Positions 759-56,998 of a DNA stretch of 64,000 bases are shown piece by piece. Position 1 is the stretch's first letter; every line of letters starts with the position of its first letter. The stretch lies in IMG/VR virus record IMGVR_UViG_3300008262_000018, positions 1 through 64,000 of that record; one strand, 5' to 3'. Below the pieces are notes generated by a model. It saw only the letters and a program-made list of their open reading frames with translations. It did no database searches and had not been told where the DNA came from. This stretch comes from a virus. Made by a program: the position numbers and the translations under genes.

Positions 759-797
759 TAAATTTGTTAAGTTTAAACATTTTAAGTATATTATATT
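759..797 (+). promoter_or_regulatory. Late-type promoter (TTTG-N20-TATATTAT) overlapped by palindrome TAAATTT-N3-AAGTTTA
   Basis: TTTG 763-766, GTATATTATATT 786-797 immediately before ATG 798; motif recurs at other operon starts. Confidence 0.6.
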
Positions 798-1028
798 ATG
801 GAGACAAGAAAAATCACACAAGAGGGAGAAGAAGAACTTCTATCTCATTACAGAGTAATTAGAGACAATAATGGAGAAGAGCTAGGGGGCGTTCCTGTAG
901 TTGATGTAAGGGATGGGCTTACATATAGGATGCTAGGGGAGCAAATGTGTAAAGCTGCTAATAGGAGTAAGTTTATTAATTATAATCAATATCATTCATC
1001 ACCTAAAAAGAAACAATATGTATCATGA
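798..1028 (+). CDS. Hypothetical protein
   Basis: First ORF of a tightly packed + strand operon. Confidence 0.6.
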   Translation: METRKITQEGEEELLSHYRVIRDNNGEELGGVPVVDVRDGLTYRMLGEQMCKAANRSKFINYNQYHSSPKKKQYVS

Positions 1029-1323: not shown

Positions 1324-1341
1324 TAATAAAAACCAATAATT

Positions 1342-12470: not shown

Positions 12471-12531
12471 TAAATTTTTAAAATTTATTTTGTATATTTT
12501 AAATGTAGATATTACTAATATAAAAACCAAC
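12471..12531 (+). promoter_or_regulatory. Promoter with palindrome TAAATTT-TTA-AAATTTA and TAAAAACCAA leader
   Basis: Palindrome 12471-12487, GTATATTTTA at 12492, TAAAAACCAAC 12521-12531. Confidence 0.55.
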
Positions 12532-13813: not shown

Positions 13814-15433
13814 ATGAGTACTCCAGTTTTAAACAATGGTATTTTTCTACGTGACACGCAGTATCACACTAGCTCTCACGTAGACTCTTACCACCTGGTG
13901 AACATGTTGAAGAGTGCAGAGCCTACTGACTTAGGTCCTGTTGACCTTTGGGCTATGGCTCAAAAGGTTGAAATGCCTCTTTATCAAATGTCCAGCTTTG
14001 GTGGTAAAAACGTTATCATGGTAGATAACGCACGTGGTGAATACAAGTGGCAAATTCCTGTTGCACAAGATCTTCCTTACATTGTAGAAGATATTGAAGC
14101 AGAGAATGCAACCAAAGGTATTGATGGTCAAACATTTAAAATCAAGTTAAACAGACGTATGTTTGGACATGGTGATATCATCACTTATGACAAATATAAC
14201 GGTGTGGAAATGTACATCACAGCTGATGATGTTATTCCTACTAACGATGGTTTTGTTTACACAGTACAGCTTGTAAACAACGACAACACTAAATATTTGG
14301 ATAACAAATATTTGAAAGTTGGTACAAAGGTATTTCGTAAAGGTAGTGCTCGTGGAGAATATGGTGAGCGTTTCTCAGATTTGGGAGATGTTCGTGCAGG
14401 TTTCCGTGAGTTCTATAACTATGTAGGTGGTGCTGAAGCTCACGTACACTATTCTATTTCTTCTCGTGCTGATCTTATGATGAAAGGTGGTATGAAAGCT
14501 GATGGAACTGTACCTGTAATTGAGCTTTGGAGAAACTTTGAAAAAACAAATGATCCTTCTATCACTAGCTTGGAAGATATGGCTGCTAAGCTTGGTAAGG
14601 ATTATGTAAAGAAAGCTTATCAATCAGGACAACTCACGCGTACTTTCTTGACTACACTTGAAGCTGCTCACCTGACTAAGATTGCTAATGACATCGAAAC
14701 CTACTTGATGTGGGGACAAGGTGGACGTATTAAGCAAGATGGTCCAGATGATCTGCGTCTTTCTGTGGGTCTTTGGAAGCAACTTGATAACTCTTACAAG
14801 CGTATCTACAACCGTGGTTCTTTCAATCTTGATCTGTTTAAATCTGAGATCTTCAACTTCTTCAATGGTCGTGTGGAGTTCAAAGGTCCAGATCCTCAAC
14901 GTTCTTTGATTGTTCAAACTGGTATTGGTGGTATGAAGCTTGTTAACGAAGCTATTAAGCGTGAAGCTGTTAACTCTGGTTTGGTTCTTAATGCTCATGA
15001 ACTTGGAGCTGTAACTGGTAAAGGTCTTGATCTAAACTTTGGATTTGCCTACACTAGCTACGTAATTCCTTTCTTGGCTAACGTTAAGTTTGTACTAAAT
15101 CCTGCATTTGATAACGTACACACTAATGATATTGAGAATCCAATCATTGATGGTTTCCCACTTTCTTCTTACAACTTTATCATTTTCGATATCACTGATA
15201 ACACAAATGATAACATCTACTTGTTGAAACTTTCTTGGGATAATCAACTTAAGTGGTTCTACCAAAATGGTACTATGGACTACATGGGTCGTACTCAAGG
15301 TTTCCAATCTAGTGGACAATTCAATGGATATCGCGTATTCATGACACAAACAATGCCTGCAATTTGGGTGAAAGATCCTACCAAGGTGTTGAAGATTGTT
15401 ATGCGCAATCCTGTTACTGGTGGTTCATTCTAA
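13814..15433 (+). CDS. Major capsid protein
   Basis: 539 aa; crAss-like synteny; strongly biased codon use (C-ending codons, CGT) suggesting high expression. Confidence 0.88.
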   Translation: MSTPVLNNGIFLRDTQYHTSSHVDSYHLVNMLKSAEPTDLGPVDLWAMAQKVEMPLYQMSSFGGKNVIMVDNARGEYKWQIPVAQDLPYIVEDIEAENATKGIDGQTFKIKLNRRMFGHGDIITYDKYNGVEMYITADDVIPTNDGFVYTVQLVNNDNTKYLDNKYLKVGTKVFRKGSARGEYGERFSDLGDVRAGFREFYNYVGGAEAHVHYSISSRADLMMKGGMKADGTVPVIELWRNFEKTNDPSITSLEDMAAKLGKDYVKKAYQSGQLTRTFLTTLEAAHLTKIANDIETYLMWGQGGRIKQDGPDDLRLSVGLWKQLDNSYKRIYNRGSFNLDLFKSEIFNFFNGRVEFKGPDPQRSLIVQTGIGGMKLVNEAIKREAVNSGLVLNAHELGAVTGKGLDLNFGFAYTSYVIPFLANVKFVLNPAFDNVHTNDIENPIIDGFPLSSYNFIIFDITDNTNDNIYLLKLSWDNQLKWFYQNGTMDYMGRTQGFQSSGQFNGYRVFMTQTMPAIWVKDPTKVLKIVMRNPVTGGSF

Positions 15434-16463: not shown

Positions 16464-16508
16464 TTGGTTACATATTGTAACCATCTTATAAACCAATAAA
16501 AACCAAAC

Positions 16509-20270: not shown

Positions 20271-20301
20271 AATTTAGAAATAATTAGTATATTATATTAT
20301 A
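20264..20301 (+). promoter_or_regulatory. Late-type promoter
   Basis: TTTG 20264-20267, N20, TATATTAT at 20288. Confidence 0.6.
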
Positions 20302-22436: not shown

Positions 22437-22452
22437 TTAAAAACCAACATAT

Positions 22453-24445: not shown

Positions 24446-24483
24446 TTTGAAAAGTTAATAAAATTGCGTAAATTATATTGTAT
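24446..24483 (+). promoter_or_regulatory. Late-type promoter for the Cys/Thr-rich cluster
   Basis: TTTG 24446-24449, N19, TAAATTAT at 24469. Confidence 0.55.
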
Positions 24484-29761: not shown

Positions 29762-31069
29762 ATGACAAAAACTATTTATATACAATTTATTCCACCAATA
29801 GGATATTATTCAGGTCCTAATTTTAGTATTACACCTAATATTGGTACTGCTGTTCCTAATGTATTTTCAAAAGAAGATTTATTAGATGGGGTGTATGTTA
29901 CAGTAGATGAGTTAGTTACTAGTGTAAGTATAAAATCTATTGGAGGAGGATGTAATAATGAGGTAATTTATCCTATAAAATTAATTACAACTACAACTAC
30001 TACTATTCCTGTAACAACAACAACAACTGCTGGTACTTCAACAACAACTAGTACTACGAGTACTAGTACAACAACAAGCACATCAACTACTTCTACTACA
30101 TCCACATCTACAACCAGCACTACAACACAACCACCATGTAAATGTTATAAAATAACAAATACATCATCTGTTTCTAGTATTTCTGGTAATTATAATCCTT
30201 GTGATGGTCTTGGCTCATTCTTAATTGCGCCTACACAATCTGTATATATTTGTACAAGATTTGAAAGTTCTATTGTTTATACTGTAAATGGAAGTCTTGC
30301 TACTCGTATAGAAATTACAAATGCGAATCCTGCTTATCCAAATTGTCCATGTAGTGGAATAATTCCAACGACAACAACAACATCTAGCAGTACAACTACA
30401 AGTACTACTACGAGTACAAGTACTACAACAACTACTACACAACCACCTTATTATACATGGAACATGTCCTCTACGTACAATACTGAGTCGCAAGCGGCTG
30501 CAGCTGGTTGTCAAAATACACTTGTTGTATACACAGGTGTTCCTTTAACAGCACCTTTTGTACAATTTTATACTAATGCATTACTTACTATTCCATTAAC
30601 AACAACAGGTTGGGTTACAGTTAATGATGGTACAAATCTTTTAATTCTAAATTTAGTAGCTGGTATTATAACACAAACAATTCCATTTGGAAAATGCAAT
30701 TCTGTTCATATAGGACTATCTATTACAAAAGATGCAACAAATTGTTATATGACAGCTACTGTTACTAAAGGAATTGTTTTAGACAATTTAGATATTAATG
30801 GTTCATTTTATACCTCTAGTAATTCTGTATGTGGATCAACTCCTATATCAACTTGTGGTTTTTCATTTATAATTCCAGCAGGATCTGTTGTAGGTTATAC
30901 ATATACAACAGCTGGATTATGCGGTGGTGGACCTGGCATATTATCTGCTTATTTAAATTCTTTAACAGTAGAAGGTGTTGCAATTACAACTCCTGCACAA
31001 TTTGAAGATATAAATAGTACAAATTATGGAATATTTAGTAGCTATTTAATTTGTACGCCTTTACCATAA
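29762..31069 (+). CDS. Mucin-like Thr/Ser-rich protein (family C), possible fibre/adhesin
   Basis: Same N-terminal domain as 29108 (GPNF...LLDGVYVTV..IKSIG..CN); two T/S tracts; C.CY domain; beta-rich C-terminus. Confidence 0.75.
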   Translation: MTKTIYIQFIPPIGYYSGPNFSITPNIGTAVPNVFSKEDLLDGVYVTVDELVTSVSIKSIGGGCNNEVIYPIKLITTTTTTIPVTTTTTAGTSTTTSTTSTSTTTSTSTTSTTSTSTTSTTTQPPCKCYKITNTSSVSSISGNYNPCDGLGSFLIAPTQSVYICTRFESSIVYTVNGSLATRIEITNANPAYPNCPCSGIIPTTTTTSSSTTTSTTTSTSTTTTTTQPPYYTWNMSSTYNTESQAAAAGCQNTLVVYTGVPLTAPFVQFYTNALLTIPLTTTGWVTVNDGTNLLILNLVAGIITQTIPFGKCNSVHIGLSITKDATNCYMTATVTKGIVLDNLDINGSFYTSSNSVCGSTPISTCGFSFIIPAGSVVGYTYTTAGLCGGGPGILSAYLNSLTVEGVAITTPAQFEDINSTNYGIFSSYLICTPLP

Positions 31070-31094
31070 AATTTGTATTTTTGTAAAAACCAAC
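31050..31094 (+). promoter_or_regulatory. Bacteroidota-type promoter (-7 TAnnTTTG) with TAAAAACCAAC leader
   Basis: TATTTTTG at 31076-31083; TTTG at 31050-31053. Confidence 0.5.
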
Positions 31095-31098
31095 ATTT

Positions 31099-32019
31099 AT
31101 GAAATTTATATGTGCGCAACCAGCCATAGACTATTACACATGGCAGGTTGAAGTAATGATTAACAACTTTATTAAAAATGGTGTTAATCCTAATGACATA
31201 CACATTTTGTGTGCATACCACGACATAATTCCAAAAACATGGAAAAAGTTGCAAATGCACTATAATGATGTATGTTTTTTCTTTTACAAAGATACACGAG
31301 GTAATCAATTCTATATTCCTTCTATTTATTTTAATATGATGAAACATCATATTAAGGCTCATCCTGAGCTAGAAAAAGAAGTGTTATTTCTTCATGATTC
31401 AGATATTATATTTACACGTCCTATTGATTTTAGTGAAATGGAAAAAGGGGACACTTGGTATTTAAGTGATACTGTAGGTTACATTGGCACCCAGTACATT
31501 TTAACAAAAGGAGAAGATGTTTATTTAGATATGTGTAGAGTGATGGAAATAGATCCATCTATTCCTAAAGAAAGAAATGCAGATTCAGGTGGCGCTCAGC
31601 ATATTGTAAAAAATACAACATACGAGTATTGGGATAAGGTGGAGAAAGATTCAATTAAGCTATATAAACATTTTTGTGAAACAGAACCTCATTATAAAGG
31701 CGAGGGGTATCCAATACAAAAATGGACAGCAGGAATGTGGTCTCTTTTGTGGAATGCTTGGAAGTTTGGACATACAACAAAAGTGGATAAAAGATTAGAT
31801 TTTTGTTGGGCTACAGATTTTATACAAAGATGGGAGCAAGCCCCAATATTTCATAATGCTGGAGTAACAGAAGATAGAAAAGATTTATTCTTTAAAGCTG
31901 CTTATATTAGTAAACTTCCATATAATGAAGTAAAGATAGAAAATATAAGTAATAAGTTTTGTTCTTATAAGTACACAGAAGAATTATTAAAAACCAAAGA
32001 AATATCGTGTTTAATTTAA
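31099..32019 (+). CDS. GT-A glycosyltransferase resembling peptide O-glycosyltransferases (SGT1/GT96, HPAT/GT95)
   Basis: YYTWQVEVM, DSDIIF (DxD), GGAQHI, WTAGMW, IFHNAG; family resemblance recalled, not searched. Confidence 0.6.
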   Translation: MKFICAQPAIDYYTWQVEVMINNFIKNGVNPNDIHILCAYHDIIPKTWKKLQMHYNDVCFFFYKDTRGNQFYIPSIYFNMMKHHIKAHPELEKEVLFLHDSDIIFTRPIDFSEMEKGDTWYLSDTVGYIGTQYILTKGEDVYLDMCRVMEIDPSIPKERNADSGGAQHIVKNTTYEYWDKVEKDSIKLYKHFCETEPHYKGEGYPIQKWTAGMWSLLWNAWKFGHTTKVDKRLDFCWATDFIQRWEQAPIFHNAGVTEDRKDLFFKAAYISKLPYNEVKIENISNKFCSYKYTEELLKTKEISCLI

Positions 32020-32035
32020 AAACCAATAAAAATAT

Positions 32036-32650: not shown

Positions 32651-33405
32651 CTTTACCTTTTATATCATGTAAAATGATTACATATGGTAGAGTTGAATTT
32701 CTTGAAGAATCATTGTATTCATTTTTAGCACAAGATTATCCTATAGATAAATGTGAACTTATAATTGTAAATGATTATCCTTTACAAAAATTAGAATTTT
32801 CATATCCAAATGTAAAAATTTTTAATTTGGATGAAACATTTAAAACAATAGGTGAAAAAGAAAATTTTGCTACAAAACAATGTAAAGGTGAAATAATATG
32901 TCAATGGGATGATGATGATTTAGCATTACCAAATCATTTAAAAAATGTAGCTAAATTTTTTATTCCAGGATCAGATCTTCTTCATTGGGACATTGGAGTA
33001 TTTATGAATATGCCTATAATTGAATTTAACGATAGGCCTTTAGGAAATTCAGGAATTGTTTTTAGTAAAACCATATGGAAAAAACTTGGTGGACATCCTA
33101 TAGAAAATGCTGGATATGATATGACATTTGTTATGAATATTCGTAAAATATCTAAAAATATTGTTTATGCAAAACCACCAATAAAAGAAGCAAGTTGGAT
33201 ATATGTTTGGGGAGGTAGAGATTATCATATGAGTGGAGGTGGAGCAGAAACTGCAGATAGACCAAATGTTGTTATAAGAAATGCTCAACATGTAGAAAAA
33301 AGAAGAAAAAGAGGTGAGATTCCTACAGGAGTTATAAAGTTAAATCCTAATTGGAAATATAATTATGTTAAAATGTTACAAGAGTTTAATTCTAAAAATA
33401 TTTGA
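32647..33405 (+). CDS. GT2-family glycosyltransferase
   Basis: ISCKMITYGR..FLEESLYSFLAQDY, ELIIVND, WDDDD. Confidence 0.85.
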   Translation: MTLPFISCKMITYGRVEFLEESLYSFLAQDYPIDKCELIIVNDYPLQKLEFSYPNVKIFNLDETFKTIGEKENFATKQCKGEIICQWDDDDLALPNHLKNVAKFFIPGSDLLHWDIGVFMNMPIIEFNDRPLGNSGIVFSKTIWKKLGGHPIENAGYDMTFVMNIRKISKNIVYAKPPIKEASWIYVWGGRDYHMSGGGAETADRPNVVIRNAQHVEKRRKRGEIPTGVIKLNPNWKYNYVKMLQEFNSKNI

Positions 33406-33440
33406 GAATTTCCTAAAAATTTCATATATTATATTGTAGA
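33401..33440 (+). promoter_or_regulatory. Late-type promoter
   Basis: TTTG 33401-33404, N20, TATATTAT at 33425. Confidence 0.6.
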
Positions 33441-33492
33441 CAACTTGTCTATAAATATACTATTATCGTACATCATTGATATTCAATAAGTT

Positions 33493-33792
33493 ATGATACC
33501 CTCTAAATCTAATCTTTCAAAAGAAAGTTGTTCTCCAATATCATCTAATTGTGTGATATGGCAAGGACCTGATATTCCTTGTTTAAATCTTTGTAATGGA
33601 GATACAGTTTCAGATATACTTTATAAACTTGCTGAAGACTACTGTAAATTTAAAGAGAGTCTTGATGTCCAAGACTTAGATATTACAGATCTATTATCTG
33701 CTTGTGGAACCAACACTCCAGCCCCACAAGATAAATCAATTGTTAAAATCCTTGAGATTATAATTGATAAGATTAACTGTTTATCAAACTAA
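33493..33792 (+). CDS. Short family A Cys-rich protein (fibre-anchor-like domain only)
   Basis: SSNCVIWQGPDIPCLNLCNGDTVSDILYKL. Confidence 0.7.
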   Translation: MIPSKSNLSKESCSPISSNCVIWQGPDIPCLNLCNGDTVSDILYKLAEDYCKFKESLDVQDLDITDLLSACGTNTPAPQDKSIVKILEIIIDKINCLSN

Positions 33793-33797
33793 TAAAT

Positions 33798-33824
33798 GTC
33801 GGAGTTTAGTTGGTTTTCTTCGAC
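33798..33824 (+). ncRNA. Hairpin displaying GTTGGTTTT loop (candidate regulatory RNA seed)
   Basis: GTCGGAG/CTTCGAC stem with 13-nt loop TTTAGTTGGTTTT. Confidence 0.45.
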
Positions 33825-33833
33825 TAATCTACA

Positions 33834-33862
33834 CCCTCCTTTTCTAGGGAGGGTTTGTTTTT
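33834..33862 (+). terminator. Intrinsic terminator
   Basis: CCCTCCTT-ttct-AGGGAGGG-TTTGTTTTT. Confidence 0.85.
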
Positions 33863-33928
33863 AAAACAAATTAGGAAATATAAAAAACTTAATATAACTT
33901 TACCAACCATAAACTAAAAACTTAATTT

Positions 33929-35116
33929 ATGAGTTTACATCACAAGGTCTATGGGACTTTAAAATGGAAAAAGTCAGATGAATATTGTGCTGCAAAATTA
34001 AACATTTCTCTCGAAGAATACAAGAAAATAAAACATAAAGTTTTAGAATCTCCCCCTCCAAAAATTACACATAAGATTATAGAGTTTAAGGAAGACGTTG
34101 AAAATGGTACAGCTGAAATAAAAGGCATTAGTTCTACAGAACCTAAATCAGCTGAGGAAATAATTGAACTCTTGAAGATTGATACTAACAAGTGGAAGCT
34201 TAGTTCTTATTGGAATAAAGAAACACATTCTGGTTGGTATGTATCAGCAATGGTTACACAGAAGAAACAAGAACCTGTTGATTATATATCTAAAGTGATT
34301 GAAAACTTTAAACCTGAATACCAACAAGTTACCACTATACACACAAATGATAAATATGAAAACCCATCAGTTGGAGTACTTTCTATTCAAGATTTACATT
34401 TTGGCAAAGAGGGCAATTTTACTATAGTAGAAGATTTTAAAAATGCTATTAGAGATTTAGTCTTGCGCGCATACGCAAGTCATAAATTAGAAAAAATTAT
34501 ATATGTTGTAGGTGGTGATCTTTTGAACATGGATAATTTTGATGGAGCTACAACAAAAGGAACACCTGTAGATAATGAACAAAGAGCATATGATGCTTAT
34601 AATGATGCATTTAATACACTATATTGGTCTGTAAATTATATCAAACAGTTTTGTAATGAGCTAGAAGTTGTTTATCTTCCAGGTAATCATGATAGACTTA
34701 GTTCATATCATATAGCTCATGCATTGTCAAAATGTTTTCAGGAGGATAGAAATATAGAATTTAATGTAGAATATTCTGAAAGAAAAGTTGTCGTCTATGG
34801 TGACAACTTTTTTGCTTTTGAACATGGGGATGTTACTAAAAAACTAACCCCTCTTGTATATGCTACCGAGTTTCCTAAACAATGGGGAAGTACAACCTAT
34901 CGTACATGTTATACAGGACACTTTCATAGCAAGAAAGTTACAGAATTTGTAACTGATAATGAGGTGCATGGGTTCTCTATAAAGCATCTTCCTTCTCTTT
35001 CTAGATCTGATTATTGGCACTATCATAATAAATTCACTGGCTCAAAACGCCAAGCTATTATGGAAATCCACGATGGAAAAAAAGGTAAAATTTCGGAGTT
35101 TACCTATAATGCCTAA
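33929..35116 (+). CDS. Calcineurin-like metallophosphoesterase
   Basis: DLHFGK, GGDLLN, PGNHD, HGD, GHFH motifs. Confidence 0.88.
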   Translation: MSLHHKVYGTLKWKKSDEYCAAKLNISLEEYKKIKHKVLESPPPKITHKIIEFKEDVENGTAEIKGISSTEPKSAEEIIELLKIDTNKWKLSSYWNKETHSGWYVSAMVTQKKQEPVDYISKVIENFKPEYQQVTTIHTNDKYENPSVGVLSIQDLHFGKEGNFTIVEDFKNAIRDLVLRAYASHKLEKIIYVVGGDLLNMDNFDGATTKGTPVDNEQRAYDAYNDAFNTLYWSVNYIKQFCNELEVVYLPGNHDRLSSYHIAHALSKCFQEDRNIEFNVEYSERKVVVYGDNFFAFEHGDVTKKLTPLVYATEFPKQWGSTTYRTCYTGHFHSKKVTEFVTDNEVHGFSIKHLPSLSRSDYWHYHNKFTGSKRQAIMEIHDGKKGKISEFTYNA

Positions 35117-35171
35117 ATCTTATAAGTTTAATTTTAAAATGTTCCAAGTTTTTAGTAAATTAATAATGTAG
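35114..35171 (+). promoter_or_regulatory. Late-type promoter with palindrome TAAATCT-TAT-AAGTTTA
   Basis: Palindrome 35114-35130; GTAAATTAATAATGTAG at 35155. Confidence 0.45.
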
Positions 35172-35177
35172 ATCATT

Positions 35178-35762
35178 GTGTCAAAACCTTATAAAAAACC
35201 AGATTTAAATGCTCCTAGGTATAGATCTAAGAAATTAAATCTTACTAACGTAGACATCTATAATAAGTTCCTTGAAGAGAATCCTCATATTGAAAGAATT
35301 TGTTTAGACAAGTTTAAAGAAGTTATCAAAACTTTTAATGGTAAAATTTGGGAATCAATTATAGAAAATAGAGATGGAGTTGAATTACCAGAACAGTTAG
35401 GATATATTTTTATAGGTACTTGTCCAAGAAAAAAAAGCAATGTTGATTTTAAAAAATCTGAACATTACGGGATAACATTACAAAATCAAAACTGGGAATC
35501 AGATCAATATGTTGCTAAAATATTTTATACAAACTATGAGAGTAAGTATAAATTTAAAAATCATGAGTTATGGGGTTTTAGTGGTGTAAGAGATTTTAAA
35601 AGAAAAGTGGGTCAAACATATCCTAAAGAATGGAAGAAGTATCTTATAGTTGATAACATGGTGAGAGTTAGTAGAATATTTAGAAAACAAAGTTTTGTAC
35701 AATTTAAGAATAAAGAAACCAAAGATCTACTTAAAGATTATGATGAATTTAATCTAGATTAA
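35178..35762 (+). CDS. crAss-like IHF-related protein
   Basis: KEVIKTFNGKIWESII..DGVELPEQLGYIFIG; typical position before tail genes; GTG start. Confidence 0.6.
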   Translation: MSKPYKKPDLNAPRYRSKKLNLTNVDIYNKFLEENPHIERICLDKFKEVIKTFNGKIWESIIENRDGVELPEQLGYIFIGTCPRKKSNVDFKKSEHYGITLQNQNWESDQYVAKIFYTNYESKYKFKNHELWGFSGVRDFKRKVGQTYPKEWKKYLIVDNMVRVSRIFRKQSFVQFKNKETKDLLKDYDEFNLD

Positions 35763-35763
35763 A

Positions 35764-36441
35764 ATGGCCAAAGTAACAATAGGAGATGTTTGCTCCAGAA
35801 TTCGTACTCAAGTAAAAGCAGTTAGACAAGATGCTTTGCTAACAGATCGTGTTATATACACGTTTGTTCTTAAGCATGCTAAATGGCTAATGAAGCGTGA
35901 AGATTCTAAAAGTAGGCTTCTTTCTTTTACTAGTGTGATTCAAACACTTGATTTTGTAGAATTAATAGAAGTAGATAAGGTAGAAGCAGAGTGTACAGGT
36001 ATTAGTTCTAATTGTACAATTAAAAGAACAAAAGAAAAAATTCCAGTTTTTTTACAAGGATATTGGGGTCCTTTGATTAGAAGTGTTGCTTCAATAGATG
36101 GTTCTGAACGTCTTCAACCAATTCTTCCTTCTACATATGTTTATAGTTCTAAATCAAAAAATAGCAAGTATAATAAAACAAAATACTTCTGGTATTTAAA
36201 TGACTACTTATATTTTCCTAATCTTGATTGGGATGCTGTAAAAATTGAAGGAATATTTGAAGATGATATAAGTGAATTTACATGTAAGAAAGAAGATAGT
36301 TGTATTCAAAGGCAAGATCAAGCATTTAATGTTCCTGATTACTTGTGGGGTGAAATTGAACAAAGTGTATTTAAAGATCTTGCAGGAATGCTTCAAATAC
36401 CACCTGATGCAGAAAATGATAAACAGAGTATAACTCGCTAA
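35764..36441 (+). CDS. Putative tail ring protein
   Basis: YFWYLNDYLY...VKIEGIFED; C-terminal P.D..ND; synteny. Confidence 0.6.
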   Translation: MAKVTIGDVCSRIRTQVKAVRQDALLTDRVIYTFVLKHAKWLMKREDSKSRLLSFTSVIQTLDFVELIEVDKVEAECTGISSNCTIKRTKEKIPVFLQGYWGPLIRSVASIDGSERLQPILPSTYVYSSKSKNSKYNKTKYFWYLNDYLYFPNLDWDAVKIEGIFEDDISEFTCKKEDSCIQRQDQAFNVPDYLWGEIEQSVFKDLAGMLQIPPDAENDKQSITR

Positions 36442-36446
36442 TACCT

Positions 36447-37304
36447 ATGAAGACAGAATTAAAATATAGAACATTTGATCAACTTCTTACTGAGGTTATT
36501 ACTGATTTTACAATGTATAATACCGAGGGTATGATTGAACCTGGTCAGCTTATTAAAGTGGCTCAAAGAGTTAATTACGATCTTGGTCTTAGAATTCATG
36601 GAACAAAAGAAAAAGTTTTGGAAATTGAGAGTAAAAAGATGAAACTTCCTGATGATTTCTATGTTCTTAATTATGCTAAACTTTGTGGAGAGTACACATT
36701 AAGAGATCCAATTCTTCATGGTAGACATACTGAGAATGTGATAATGGATAGTTGTCCTAAGTGTGGATGTGATAGCGGATGTGAGTGTGAAGCCACTTAT
36801 GTACAAGAATGTCAAAATGGAGAGAAAATATATGTACAAGTGGTAGAAAAACGCAAACAAGAGGTAAGAACGTATAAGCAATTTGTTGATATTAAGATAG
36901 TTGCTACTACAGGTAGAACTGATGCTCTTGATAATAGCTTTCCTACAGGGTATATTAAAAATGGATTTATATATACTAACCTGGACAAAGGAAATGTATT
37001 TATTTCTTATCAAGGTGCCTTAGAAGATGATCATGGAAACTTATTAGTATTAGATCATCCTGTAATTAACGAGTATTATGAATACGCAATGAAACAACGT
37101 ATTCTTGAAAATTTGTATATGAATGGCGAAGATGTTGTTAATAAAATTCAACTTATTGAGCAACGTTTACGTCCTGCTAGAAATAATGCTTTATCTATTG
37201 TTAACACTCCTGATTTTGAAGAAATGCAACAACTTTGGGAAACAAATAGAAAAGCACAGTATTATAAGTACTACGATATGTTTAAATCATACGGAGGTTT
37301 ATAA
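36447..37304 (+). CDS. Putative tail tubular/ring protein with Cys-rich insert
   Basis: KLPDDFY, NGFIYTNLDKG.V.ISY.G...D..G; CPKCGCDSGCEC insert. Confidence 0.65.
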   Translation: MKTELKYRTFDQLLTEVITDFTMYNTEGMIEPGQLIKVAQRVNYDLGLRIHGTKEKVLEIESKKMKLPDDFYVLNYAKLCGEYTLRDPILHGRHTENVIMDSCPKCGCDSGCECEATYVQECQNGEKIYVQVVEKRKQEVRTYKQFVDIKIVATTGRTDALDNSFPTGYIKNGFIYTNLDKGNVFISYQGALEDDHGNLLVLDHPVINEYYEYAMKQRILENLYMNGEDVVNKIQLIEQRLRPARNNALSIVNTPDFEEMQQLWETNRKAQYYKYYDMFKSYGGL

Positions 37305-56942: not shown

Positions 56943-56998
56943 TAAACTTTAAAAGTTTAGTTTTAAACTTTTAAAATTTTATAGTATATTATATTATA
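56943..56998 (+). promoter_or_regulatory. Late-type promoter with tandem palindromes TAAACTT-N3-AAGTTTA
   Basis: Perfect palindrome 56943-56959, second copy 56964-56980, GTATATTATATTATA at 56984. Confidence 0.6.

What the first reader, a model, noticed from the sequence alone, without database searches (positions are those of the whole stretch)
33798..33862. Hairpin loop complementary to a leader motif found before six genes: candidate phage sRNA regulon
Seen: a 7-bp stem (GTCGGAG/CTTCGAC) exposes TTTAGTTGGTTTT and is followed by a strong terminator. GTTGGTTTT is the exact reverse complement of AAAACCAAC (leaders of 12536, 22453, 31099), and TTGGTTTT pairs with all six TAAAAACCAA leaders. Inference: a 3'-UTR-derived small RNA from the promoter at 33.4 kb could repress, or act as a trans guide for, translation of this gene set. 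An alternative fold (TTAGTTG/CGACTAA) would hide part of the seed, suggesting a switch.
Basis: partly seen in the sequence, partly recalled or inferred. Interest (0 to 1): 0.78.

Follow-up and report, generated by a model that had tools for sequence, protein, structure and literature searches.

The report
Conserved anti-leader RNA hairpin, crAss-like phage
At the end of its tail-fibre genes this lake-water crAss-like phage keeps a small RNA hairpin whose never-changing loop mirrors a short tag in front of several virion genes, so it may tune their translation, but no such RNA has been seen and a protein-binding role is nearly as likely.

Summary
Hairpin 33798-33824 and terminator 33833-33862 are as described. 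The element lies upstream of the same metallophosphatase gene in 80 of 80 related viral contigs and in the isolate Leptolyngbya phage Lbo-JY46.

- Stems differ between clades but still pair. Cognate arms fold at -7.1 kcal/mol, swapped arms at -3.1.
- The loop core TTGGTT is invariant in 65 distinct sequences.
- There is one copy per genome and no Rfam match.

AAACCAA boxes, the exact complement of the invariant loop core, sit 10-16 nt before start codons. They are 4-9 times enriched in leaders and kept in orthologous leaders.

Against pairing:
- I found no significant loop/box covariation.
- Lbo-JY46 keeps the loop without enriched boxes.
- Duplex energies are unremarkable.
- There is no transcript evidence.
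- The proposed switch fold is not conserved.

Earlier notes of this scan describe the same element on other phage genomes, so it is not new to the scan.

Best reading: a GcvB-like anti-enhancer RNA (0.4). Main rival: a protein-binding site (0.3).

The parts
33798..33824 (+). RNA hairpin: arms GTCGGAG/CTTCGAC, 13-nt loop
   Evidence: Sequence. A homologous hairpin occurs in 80 of 80 relatives, with stems that differ between clades but pair.
33810..33816 (+). Invariant loop core TTGGTTT, the complement of AAACCAA
   Evidence: TTGGTT is invariant and the next T nearly invariant in 65 distinct sequences. It is also present in Lbo-JY46.
33833..33862 (+). Intrinsic terminator: 9-pair stem-loop plus T-run
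   Evidence: A compensatory A-T to G-C change at the stem base is seen in L163. It is the only strong + strand terminator inside the 1-78 kb gene block, apart from one inside a CDS.
33424..33441 (+). Promoter-like block upstream of the 99-aa ORF
   Evidence: An identical block TATATTATATTGTAGACA occurs in the closest relative. A related motif lies at 786, 20287, 24468 and 56984, all intergenic. Not shown to be a promoter.
33493..33792 (+). 99-aa ORF whose 3' untranslated end carries the hairpin
   Evidence: It is a stand-alone copy of the N-terminal part of proteins of about 405-580 aa in relatives. The gene upstream of the element differs between relatives.
33929..35116 (+). Downstream metallophosphatase / DNA-repair-exonuclease-like gene, the constant neighbour of the element
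   Evidence: PHROG 704, E 3e-50. Weak Pfam Metallophos hit. 139 relatives found, 80 kept.
1327..1336 (+). Leader box TAAAAACCAA before the 111-aa gene (ATG 1342)
12521..12530 (+). Leader box before the 415-aa gene (ATG 12536); 9-nt complement to the loop
   Evidence: The box is kept in orthologues of 10 of 11 environmental genomes.
16487..16506 (+). Two tandem boxes before the 338-aa gene (ATG 16509)
   Evidence: 77 of 80 relatives have at least one box and 66 of 80 have at least two.
22438..22447 (+). Leader box before the 55-aa Cys-rich gene (ATG 22453)
31084..31093 (+). Leader box before the 306-aa gene (ATG 31099)
   Evidence: The box is kept in the G003 orthologue.
31988..32026 (+). Two boxes (31988, 32017) before the 204-aa methyltransferase gene (ATG 32036)

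Best explanation
The element is a structured RNA at the 3' end of the tail-fibre / late transcription unit of an environmental crAss-like phage. It consists of a hairpin with an exposed 11-19-nt G/U-rich loop, a short spacer and an intrinsic terminator.

Proposed mechanism (inferred, not shown): the RNA remains on the mRNA 3' end or is trimmed to a short RNA of about 65 nt. Its loop core UUGGUUU(U) then base-pairs with C/A-rich AAACCAA boxes that lie 10-16 nt before the start codons of a handful of virion genes. Here these are the genes at 1342, 12536, 16509, 22453, 31099 and 32036.

The leaders have no Shine-Dalgarno sequence, so the boxes probably act as translation enhancers. Pairing would mask them and lower, or time, the translation of those proteins as late transcripts build up.

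Shown: the structure, its conservation, its single-copy state, its strand, and the complementarity of the two conserved motifs.
Inferred: that the RNA accumulates, that the two motifs meet, and the direction of the effect.
For: 1. Structure. Hairpins are present in 80 of 80 relatives and in Lbo-JY46. There are 25 distinct arm pairs among 67 sequences. Cognate arms fold at a mean of -7.08 kcal/mol, against -3.05 for 3324 chimeras between 8 stem classes; 4.9% of chimeras reach the cognate mean.

2. RNA, + strand. 56 of 384 stem pairs are G-U. The + strand folds better than the opposite strand in 56 of 67 sequences. A terminator follows on the same strand.

3. Loop. TTGGTT is invariant in 65 distinct sequences. 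The mean unpaired probability of the core is 0.81.

4. Boxes.
- AACCAA is found in the 30 nt before 8, 7, 5, 9 and 6 genes in five genomes, against 1.0-1.8 expected.
- AAACCAA ranks 2, 5, 1, 1 and 2 of 21 same-composition words.
- All six exact TAAAAACCAA leaders start 12-19 nt before the ATG, four of them at 15 nt.
- Boxes are kept before the 338-aa gene in 77 of 80 freshwater loci and in 39 of 43 unique marine leaders. They are also kept before the 415-aa gene in 10 of 11 environmental genomes.

5. The invariant heptamer of the loop matches the invariant heptamer of the box. The variable loop position faces the variable box position.

6. Box spacing varies (5 to 29 nt). This fits single-stranded RNA sites better than phased DNA sites.

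7. Leaders are over-represented among the best predicted duplexes: 18 of 120 top sites, against a background share of 3.2-4.6%.

8. A working precedent exists. GcvB silences C/A-rich (ACA) translation enhancers (PMC3879156, abstract read). Bacteroides GibS/FopS sRNAs bind translation initiation regions (10.1101/2023.12.22.572801, passages read).
Against: - No covariation. Genomes with A at the variable loop position have T:C = 8:3 after the box. Genomes with G there have 14:13, which is not significant. The commonest next base is A, which pairs with neither. The one genome fragment with C at that position that still carries these genes (G012) has T, A and A after its boxes, and never G.
- Lbo-JY46 keeps the loop, but AACCAA is found before 4 genes against 1.9 expected, and AAACCAA before 1 against 0.85. 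No 7-mer complementary to its loop that includes the CC core occurs in its leaders.
- Boxes are weak in G006 and G009.
- The strongest predicted duplexes lie in coding regions, not leaders.
- In this window the loop carries an A where relatives have U. This costs a pair with the 12536 leader. The window's own MFE also buries part of the core.
- A U-rich loop is bound to complement A-rich leaders to some degree. Only the GG/CC part is specific.
- No RNA ends or abundance could be obtained. RNA-library contigs merely span 33794-33962.
Confidence: 0.4

Rival explanations
1. The hairpin is a binding site for a phage or host RNA-binding protein. The protein reads the loop sequence and acts in cis at this site. 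One option is regulated read-through (antitermination) of the terminator that follows. That terminator separates the head and tail-fibre genes from the ring, cargo and virion-polymerase genes. The other option is control of 3'-end stability. On this view the complementarity to the leader boxes is a coincidence between U-rich and A-rich sequences.
For: - The loop sequence is invariant while the stems drift, which is typical of loop-specific recognition.
- The loop is kept in Lbo-JY46, where boxes are not enriched.
- There is no loop/box covariation.
- The terminator is the only strong one inside a 78-kb co-directional block of virion genes. The genes after it are also structural: CrAss_Ring_2 and CrAss_Ring_1.
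- RNA-library contigs bridge the terminator. This is a weak hint only, because DNA in those libraries cannot be excluded.
Against: - No candidate protein was identified.
- There is a single site per genome, whereas lambda-type systems have two.
- The hairpin does not overlap the terminator stem, so a simple RAT-type antiterminator is not evident.
- A conserved promoter-like stretch lies between the terminator and the downstream gene, so read-through is not needed for its expression.
- This reading does not explain why exactly the complement of the loop core is the most conserved leader box.
Confidence: 0.3
2. The loop pairs with an RNA other than the phage leaders, such as host mRNA leaders or another host RNA. 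This would reprogramme host translation. The phage boxes would merely copy good host-type leaders.
For: - The loop is conserved beyond the clade that has boxes.
- C/A-rich, Shine-Dalgarno-free leaders are a property of the presumed host group. Only 6 of 129 genes here have an SD-like motif.
Against: - No host genome is known for this phage, so nothing could be tested.
- The phage's own box-bearing genes would be hit as well.
Confidence: 0.12
3. It is a DNA-level site: a double-stranded recognition sequence AAACCAA/TTGGTTT for a DNA-binding regulator, or a hairpin extruded from DNA. It would be present in one orientation at the leaders and in the other orientation here.
For: - The same double-stranded 7-mer occurs at both kinds of site.
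- The virion RNA polymerase of a crAss-like phage prefers single-stranded templates in vitro (10.1101/2020.03.07.982082, passages read).
Against: - G-U pairs make the + strand fold better in 56 of 67 sequences, and a + strand terminator follows.
- Box spacing is not helically phased.
- Boxes keep a fixed distance to the ATG, not to promoter-like motifs.
- That paper reports no common motif upstream of early transcripts.
Confidence: 0.05
4. It is only an accessory 3'-end structure, a second hairpin that helps termination or protects against exonucleases, with no sequence-specific partner.
For: - Its position is directly before the terminator.
- An A-rich spacer typical of terminators is present in relatives.
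Against: An invariant loop over sequences whose neighbouring proteins are only 27-85% identical is not expected for a purely structural hairpin. Here the stems vary and the loop does not.
Confidence: 0.05

Closest known systems
GcvB sRNA of enterobacteria (G/U-rich seed against C/A-rich translation enhancers)
   Same: A G/U-rich exposed seed is complementary to C/A-rich elements at or just upstream of ribosome-binding regions of many mRNAs. Those elements are themselves translation enhancers (PMC3879156, abstract read; the multi-target picture is from my own knowledge).
   Different: - No sequence or structure homology: there is no Rfam hit.
- The seed here sits in a hairpin loop.
- The element is encoded by a virulent phage, and the candidate targets are the phage's own virion genes.
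- The presumed host group lacks Hfq (recalled).
- Function is untested.
3'-UTR-derived base-pairing sRNAs (CpxQ, SroC, DapZ type; recalled)
   Same: The element lies between a stop codon and the mRNA's own terminator, and it has a conserved seed upstream of the terminator hairpin.
   Different: No processed RNA species has been shown. The upstream gene is not conserved, only the element and the downstream gene are.
Bacteroides thetaiotaomicron GibS / FopS sRNAs
   Same: These are trans-acting sRNAs of Bacteroidota. They bind near start codons and repress translation, they end in a Rho-independent terminator, and one member is 3'-derived (10.1101/2023.12.22.572801, passages read).
   Different: Their seed is in a single-stranded 5' stretch, not a loop. 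They are chromosomal and multicopy, and they target susC mRNAs. No similarity was detected.
c4 antisense RNA of phages P1/P7 and CI RNA of P4 (recalled, not read here)
   Same: These are phage-encoded small RNAs cut from an operon transcript. Their exposed loops pair with sites, including a ribosome-binding region, on phage transcripts.
   Different: Their targets lie downstream on the same transcript and control immunity genes. Here the candidate targets lie in other, upstream units and are virion genes.
Lambda nut (boxB) / HK022 put antitermination sites (recalled)
   Same: A hairpin in the nascent RNA lies upstream of a terminator inside a long co-directional gene block.
   Different: There is one site per genome. 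The loop is 11-19 nt with a 7-nt invariant core, not a pentaloop. No boxA-like element or N-like protein was identified.

Membership tests
Any Rfam 15 family | Score at or above the family's gathering threshold | tested here: not met
   There were 0 hits in the whole window at gathering thresholds. The best sub-threshold hit on 33700-33950 was RprA at 26.8 bits against a threshold of 70, E 0.3.
Intrinsic (Rho-independent) terminator | G+C-rich stem-loop followed by a U-run on the transcribed strand | tested here: met
   Stem-loop 33833-33854 has 9 pairs, 5 of them G-C, and is followed by TTGTTTTT. Compensatory changes are seen in relatives.
3'-UTR-derived base-pairing sRNA | Lies between the stop codon and the mRNA's own terminator | tested here: met
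   The stop codon is at 33790-33792 and the hairpin starts at 33798. The same layout is seen in relatives.
3'-UTR-derived base-pairing sRNA | A stable short RNA species with a defined 5' end | not testable with these tools
   Only assembled contigs of RNA libraries were available. They cannot show ends or levels.
3'-UTR-derived base-pairing sRNA | Conserved seed complementary to conserved target sites | tested here: inconclusive
   The 7-nt cores are complementary and both are conserved. There is no flanking covariation, and no box enrichment in Lbo-JY46.
GcvB-like anti-enhancer regulation | G/U-rich accessible seed and C/A-rich elements at ribosome-binding distance | tested here: met
   The loop core has a mean unpaired probability of 0.81. 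Boxes start 12-19 nt before the ATG.
GcvB-like anti-enhancer regulation | Homology to GcvB RNA | tested here: not met
   No Rfam match.
Lambda-type nut site | Two or more sites per genome, downstream of the early promoters | tested here: not met
   There is one element per genome in 11 genomes.
Lambda-type nut site | Cognate N-like antiterminator protein and a boxA element | not tested
   No search for such a protein was made.
Crassvirales (context of the element) | crAss-type major capsid and tail ring proteins | tested here: met
   Pfam Crass_capsid, E 8.5e-31. CrAss_Ring_2, E 4.9e-23, and CrAss_Ring_1, E 3.9e-13.

The most novel reading that the evidence does not exclude
In bacteria and phages that do not use Shine-Dalgarno pairing, this crAss-like lineage has its own translation code. 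C/A-rich AAACCAA boxes mark the mRNAs of stoichiometrically critical virion proteins. A single phage RNA made at the end of the late operon reads those boxes through an invariant loop. It would act as a master timer, or dosage governor, of capsid assembly. A bolder form: the RNA acts positively, as a trans-acting adaptor that brings ribosomes to boxed leaders.
Probability: 0.12. Interest if true: 0.85.

Novelty: new variant of a known kind. Interest (0 to 1): 0.6.

Why it matters
crAss-like phages are among the most abundant phages known, yet almost nothing is known about how they control gene expression after transcription. Their presumed hosts initiate translation without Shine-Dalgarno pairing.

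This element is a single, deeply conserved RNA hairpin with an unchanging loop. It is kept across freshwater and marine lineages and in one cultured isolate. That makes it a concrete and testable handle.
- If the loop pairs with the C/A-rich leader boxes, it would be the first example of a virulent phage governing its own virion-protein translation with an anti-enhancer RNA.
- If it binds a protein, it marks an unknown control point between two blocks of structural genes.

Either way it deserves a place as a new RNA family. The isolate Lbo-JY46 gives a system in which to test it.

Tried and rejected
- **Rfam.** No family matched, either at gathering thresholds or at E up to 10 on the local region.

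- **tRNA or tmRNA.** None in the window. The loop resembles a tRNA D-loop (AGUUGGUU) only in this lineage. Relatives have U where A14 would be, so I dropped that idea (my reading).

- **Phage collection by DNA.**
  - No match for 33400-35200.
  - A 91-nt element query gave only chance-level hits with E of 0.8 or more.
  - The 18-nt identity in Prevotella phage Lak-A1 lies in a stretch with no hairpin or terminator, so it is a chance match.

- **RNAalifold on a MAFFT alignment.** It recovered only 3 terminator pairs, because stems of different length are not aligned by sequence. A second alignment of trimmed hairpins had the same problem. I therefore built no covariance model and did not use the count of structure pairs. 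Instead I ran constrained folds and an arm-swap control in scripts. A first arm-swap control based on helix length alone did not discriminate, 5.73 against 4.90 pairs, and was replaced by the energy version.

- **Loop/box covariation.** Tested and not significant. The paired marine sample shared only 10 contigs with the hairpin set, too few to test.

- **Expression.** Of the 21 runs listed, the three labelled as RNA libraries each held about 5% of the words. When laid, each gave one short contig over 33794-33962. This gives no ends, no strand and no level, and X18 and X20 look like the same data. The lack of cover elsewhere says nothing.

- **Site noted by another reader ('primase leader').** The AAAACCAAC copy at G000 86638 (- strand) lies between a stop codon and a terminator, 45 nt before the next ATG. 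It is not at ribosome-binding distance.

- **Host inference from the TAnnTTTG promoter box.** Enriched upstream of genes in G004, G007 and Lbo-JY46, but not in this genome, where it is 8 of 157 against a 4.3% share. The host of this phage remains inferred.

- **Literature.** Searches found no paper describing this hairpin, and no paper on Lbo-JY46 is in the library. This is a limited search, not proof of absence. Supplementary file 1 and Tables 2-4 of 10.1101/2020.03.07.982082 (promoter lists, intergenic transcripts) may bear on the promoter-like motif and on non-coding transcripts of crAss-like phages.

Full report
**What is there**

The window is the first 64 kb of a 121,096-bp virus record with direct terminal repeats. 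It has about 31% G+C, and all genes in the window lie on the + strand.

Pfam identifies a crAss-type major capsid protein at 13814-15433. It also identifies crAss tail ring proteins 2 and 1 at 35764-37304. So this is an environmental crAss-like phage. DNA runs that hold the stretch are mostly lake or freshwater metagenomes.

Only 6 of 129 called genes have a Shine-Dalgarno-like motif. Leaders are A-rich, and TAAAAAC is the most enriched 7-mer, found before 15 genes.

After an 8-nt spacer comes a 9-pair terminator stem-loop at 33833-33854 with a T-run. The stop codon of a 99-aa ORF lies 5 nt upstream.

**Is it more than chance?**

On this window alone, no. The 9-mer AAAACCAAC has 4 copies against 1.15 expected, and 6 of 100 shuffles do as well.

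The comparative evidence is decisive.
- The closest relative shares a 73-nt block of perfect identity covering both hairpins. The ORF before it is about 70% identical at the DNA level.
- A more distant pair of contigs keeps the first hairpin letter for letter. They change the base pair at the foot of the terminator from A-T to G-C.
- I fetched 80 relatives with the downstream gene, at 49-85% protein identity. Of these, 79 carry the element within about 230 nt upstream of that gene. The 80th (L034) carries it about 600 nt upstream, with an extra ORF inserted between.
- The only cultured relative I found is Leptolyngbya phage Lbo-JY46, with 27-28% protein identity in the neighbouring genes. It has the element in the same position: stem ATATAAA/TTTATAT, loop TTTGTTGGTTG, then a terminator.

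**Structure and strand**

Among 65 distinct sequences the hexamer TTGGTT is invariant and the flanking T residues nearly so. The stems fall into at least 8 classes, including GTCGGAG, GTCAG(G), GGAGG, GTAGAG/GTGGAG, GTAGTG and ATATAAA.

With the core held unpaired, cognate 5' and 3' flanks fold at a mean of -7.08 kcal/mol. For 3324 chimeras between classes the mean is -3.05, and 4.9% of chimeras reach the cognate mean. Marine relatives add an outer helix that also covaries, AGCG/CGCT against ACAA/TTGT.

Of 384 stem pairs, 56 are G-U. The + strand folds better than its complement in 56 of 67 sequences. So the selected molecule is the + strand RNA.

The core is predicted to be unpaired, with a mean probability of 0.81 and above 0.5 in 61 of 67 sequences. 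This window's lineage is an exception at 0.43. The 'switch' fold is therefore a local peculiarity.

Each of 11 complete genomes has one copy. In this genome its terminator is the only strong + strand terminator inside the 78-kb block of co-directional genes, apart from one inside a CDS and the one at the end of the block. No Rfam family matches.

**The leader boxes**

TAAAAACCAA occurs 8 times in the window, always on the + strand. Six copies start 12-19 nt before an ATG, four of them at 15 nt.

In five complete genomes AACCAA lies in the last 30 nt before 8, 7, 5, 9 and 6 genes, against 1.0-1.8 expected. Among the 21 words of the same composition, AAACCAA ranks 2, 5, 1, 1 and 2.

The boxes are kept in orthologous leaders.
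- Before the 338-aa gene, 77 of 80 freshwater loci have a box and 66 have two or more.
- 39 of 43 unique marine leaders of that gene have one.
- Before the 415-aa gene they are present in 10 of 11 environmental genomes.

Their spacing varies from 5 to 29 nt. This suits single-stranded RNA elements better than phased DNA sites.

The invariant loop heptamer UUGGUUU is the exact complement of the invariant box heptamer AAACCAA. The one variable loop position (G, A or C) faces the variable position after the box.

C/A-rich elements are known translation enhancers, and the G/U-rich seed of GcvB silences them (PMC3879156, abstract).

**What speaks against pairing**

- I could not show co-variation.
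  - Genomes with A at the variable loop position have T:C = 8:3 after their boxes.
  - Those with G have 14:13, a trend in the right direction that is not significant and is confounded by relatedness.
  - The commonest next base is A, which pairs with neither.
  - The genome fragment with C at that position that includes these genes has T, A and A after its boxes, never G.
- Lbo-JY46 keeps the loop but has no box enrichment, 4 against 1.9 expected. It has no leader copy of any 7-mer complementary to the CC-containing part of its loop. Some of its leaders are C/A-rich (AAACAA repeats), which could still pair with the 5' half of the loop.
- Two marine genomes, G006 and G009, have few boxes.
- Predicted duplexes with leaders are over-represented among the top sites, 18 of 120 against a 3-5% background. 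The very best sites are in coding regions.
- No transcript evidence could be had. The three RNA-labelled runs each yield one short contig that spans 33794-33962. That contig covers the hairpin, the terminator and the start of the next gene. It shows neither ends nor strand, and it may stem from DNA.

**Weighing**

The structure, its RNA nature and its conservation are shown. The function is inferred.

The reading that best uses all observations is an anti-leader (anti-enhancer) RNA, at 0.4. A loop-specific protein-binding site comes second, at 0.3. Such a site could, for instance, govern read-through of the only internal terminator between two blocks of virion genes. It explains the JY46 result and the missing covariation, but not the mirror-image relation.

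Other readings are less likely:
- another RNA target;
- a DNA site;
- a merely structural hairpin.

**Relation to earlier notes of this scan**

Notes found describe the same element on other phage genomes and reach similar verdicts. So the element is not new to the scan, and those notes are not independent evidence. Two of them state that loop and boxes change together in distant relatives. My sample does not reproduce that.

One is the isolate Lbo-JY46 as a carrier of the element. The other is that it keeps the loop without box enrichment.

**Novelty**

The RNA family is absent from Rfam 15. My literature searches found no description of it.

As a mechanism it would be a new variant of a known kind, namely base-pairing regulatory RNAs that mask translation initiation regions.

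Noticed in passing
window 786-800, 20287-20301, 24468-24482, 33424-33438, 56984-56998: A promoter-like motif GTATATTATATT(G/A)TA recurs with at most 2 mismatches at five intergenic + strand sites, each upstream of a gene. Related forms precede the 415-aa gene orthologues in relatives. It may be the phage's middle or late promoter.
   Followed up: partly
window 33493-33792: The 99-aa ORF is a stand-alone copy of the N-terminal ~97 residues of proteins of about 405-580 aa in relatives. Most of those are followed by further tail-fibre-like genes. 371 stretches in the viral collection match it. It looks like a shared N-terminal anchor domain left over after a module swap.
   Followed up: partly
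window 16465-16485 and loci L192-L271: Just upstream of the tandem boxes of the 338-aa gene lies a hairpin (GGTTACATATTGTAACC here). Its stem differs between relatives but still pairs, for example GGTCTTCGGACC and CCGGAATAGATCCGG. It may be a 5' stabiliser or a processing site.
   Followed up: no
L310-L313 (PP438436.1, Leptolyngbya phage Lbo-JY46): This isolate is recorded on a cyanobacterium. Yet only 6 of 157 of its genes have SD-like motifs. Several virion genes are preceded by TAnnTTTG, the -7 box of Bacteroidota promoters (recalled consensus): 22 of 266 copies lie in upstream regions that make up 5% of the sequence. The true host may deserve a check.
   Followed up: partly
G000:C1:114948-115100, - strand (outside the window): A terminator there, CCTGGTGTTTCTACACTGGG, has the same stem and loop as the terminators of the element in relatives. 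It follows what reads like the 3' end of a tRNA-like gene, a T-arm GGGGTTCGATTCCCC.
   Followed up: no
L034:2406-3000: One relative has an extra ORF inserted between the element and the metallophosphatase gene. Read by eye, its end looks like an HNH homing endonuclease. This was not searched.
   Followed up: no
window 33929-34110 and L310:745-912: The first ~60 residues of the metallophosphatase protein look, by eye, like the separate 55-aa ORF that precedes the homologue in Lbo-JY46. This suggests a fused or split small N-terminal domain. It was not tested.
   Followed up: no
window 31060-31098: The 306-aa gene has TATTTTTG (TAnnTTTG type) directly before its box, and the G003 orthologue has TATATTTG. 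This mRNA may therefore start within or just before the box.
   Followed up: no
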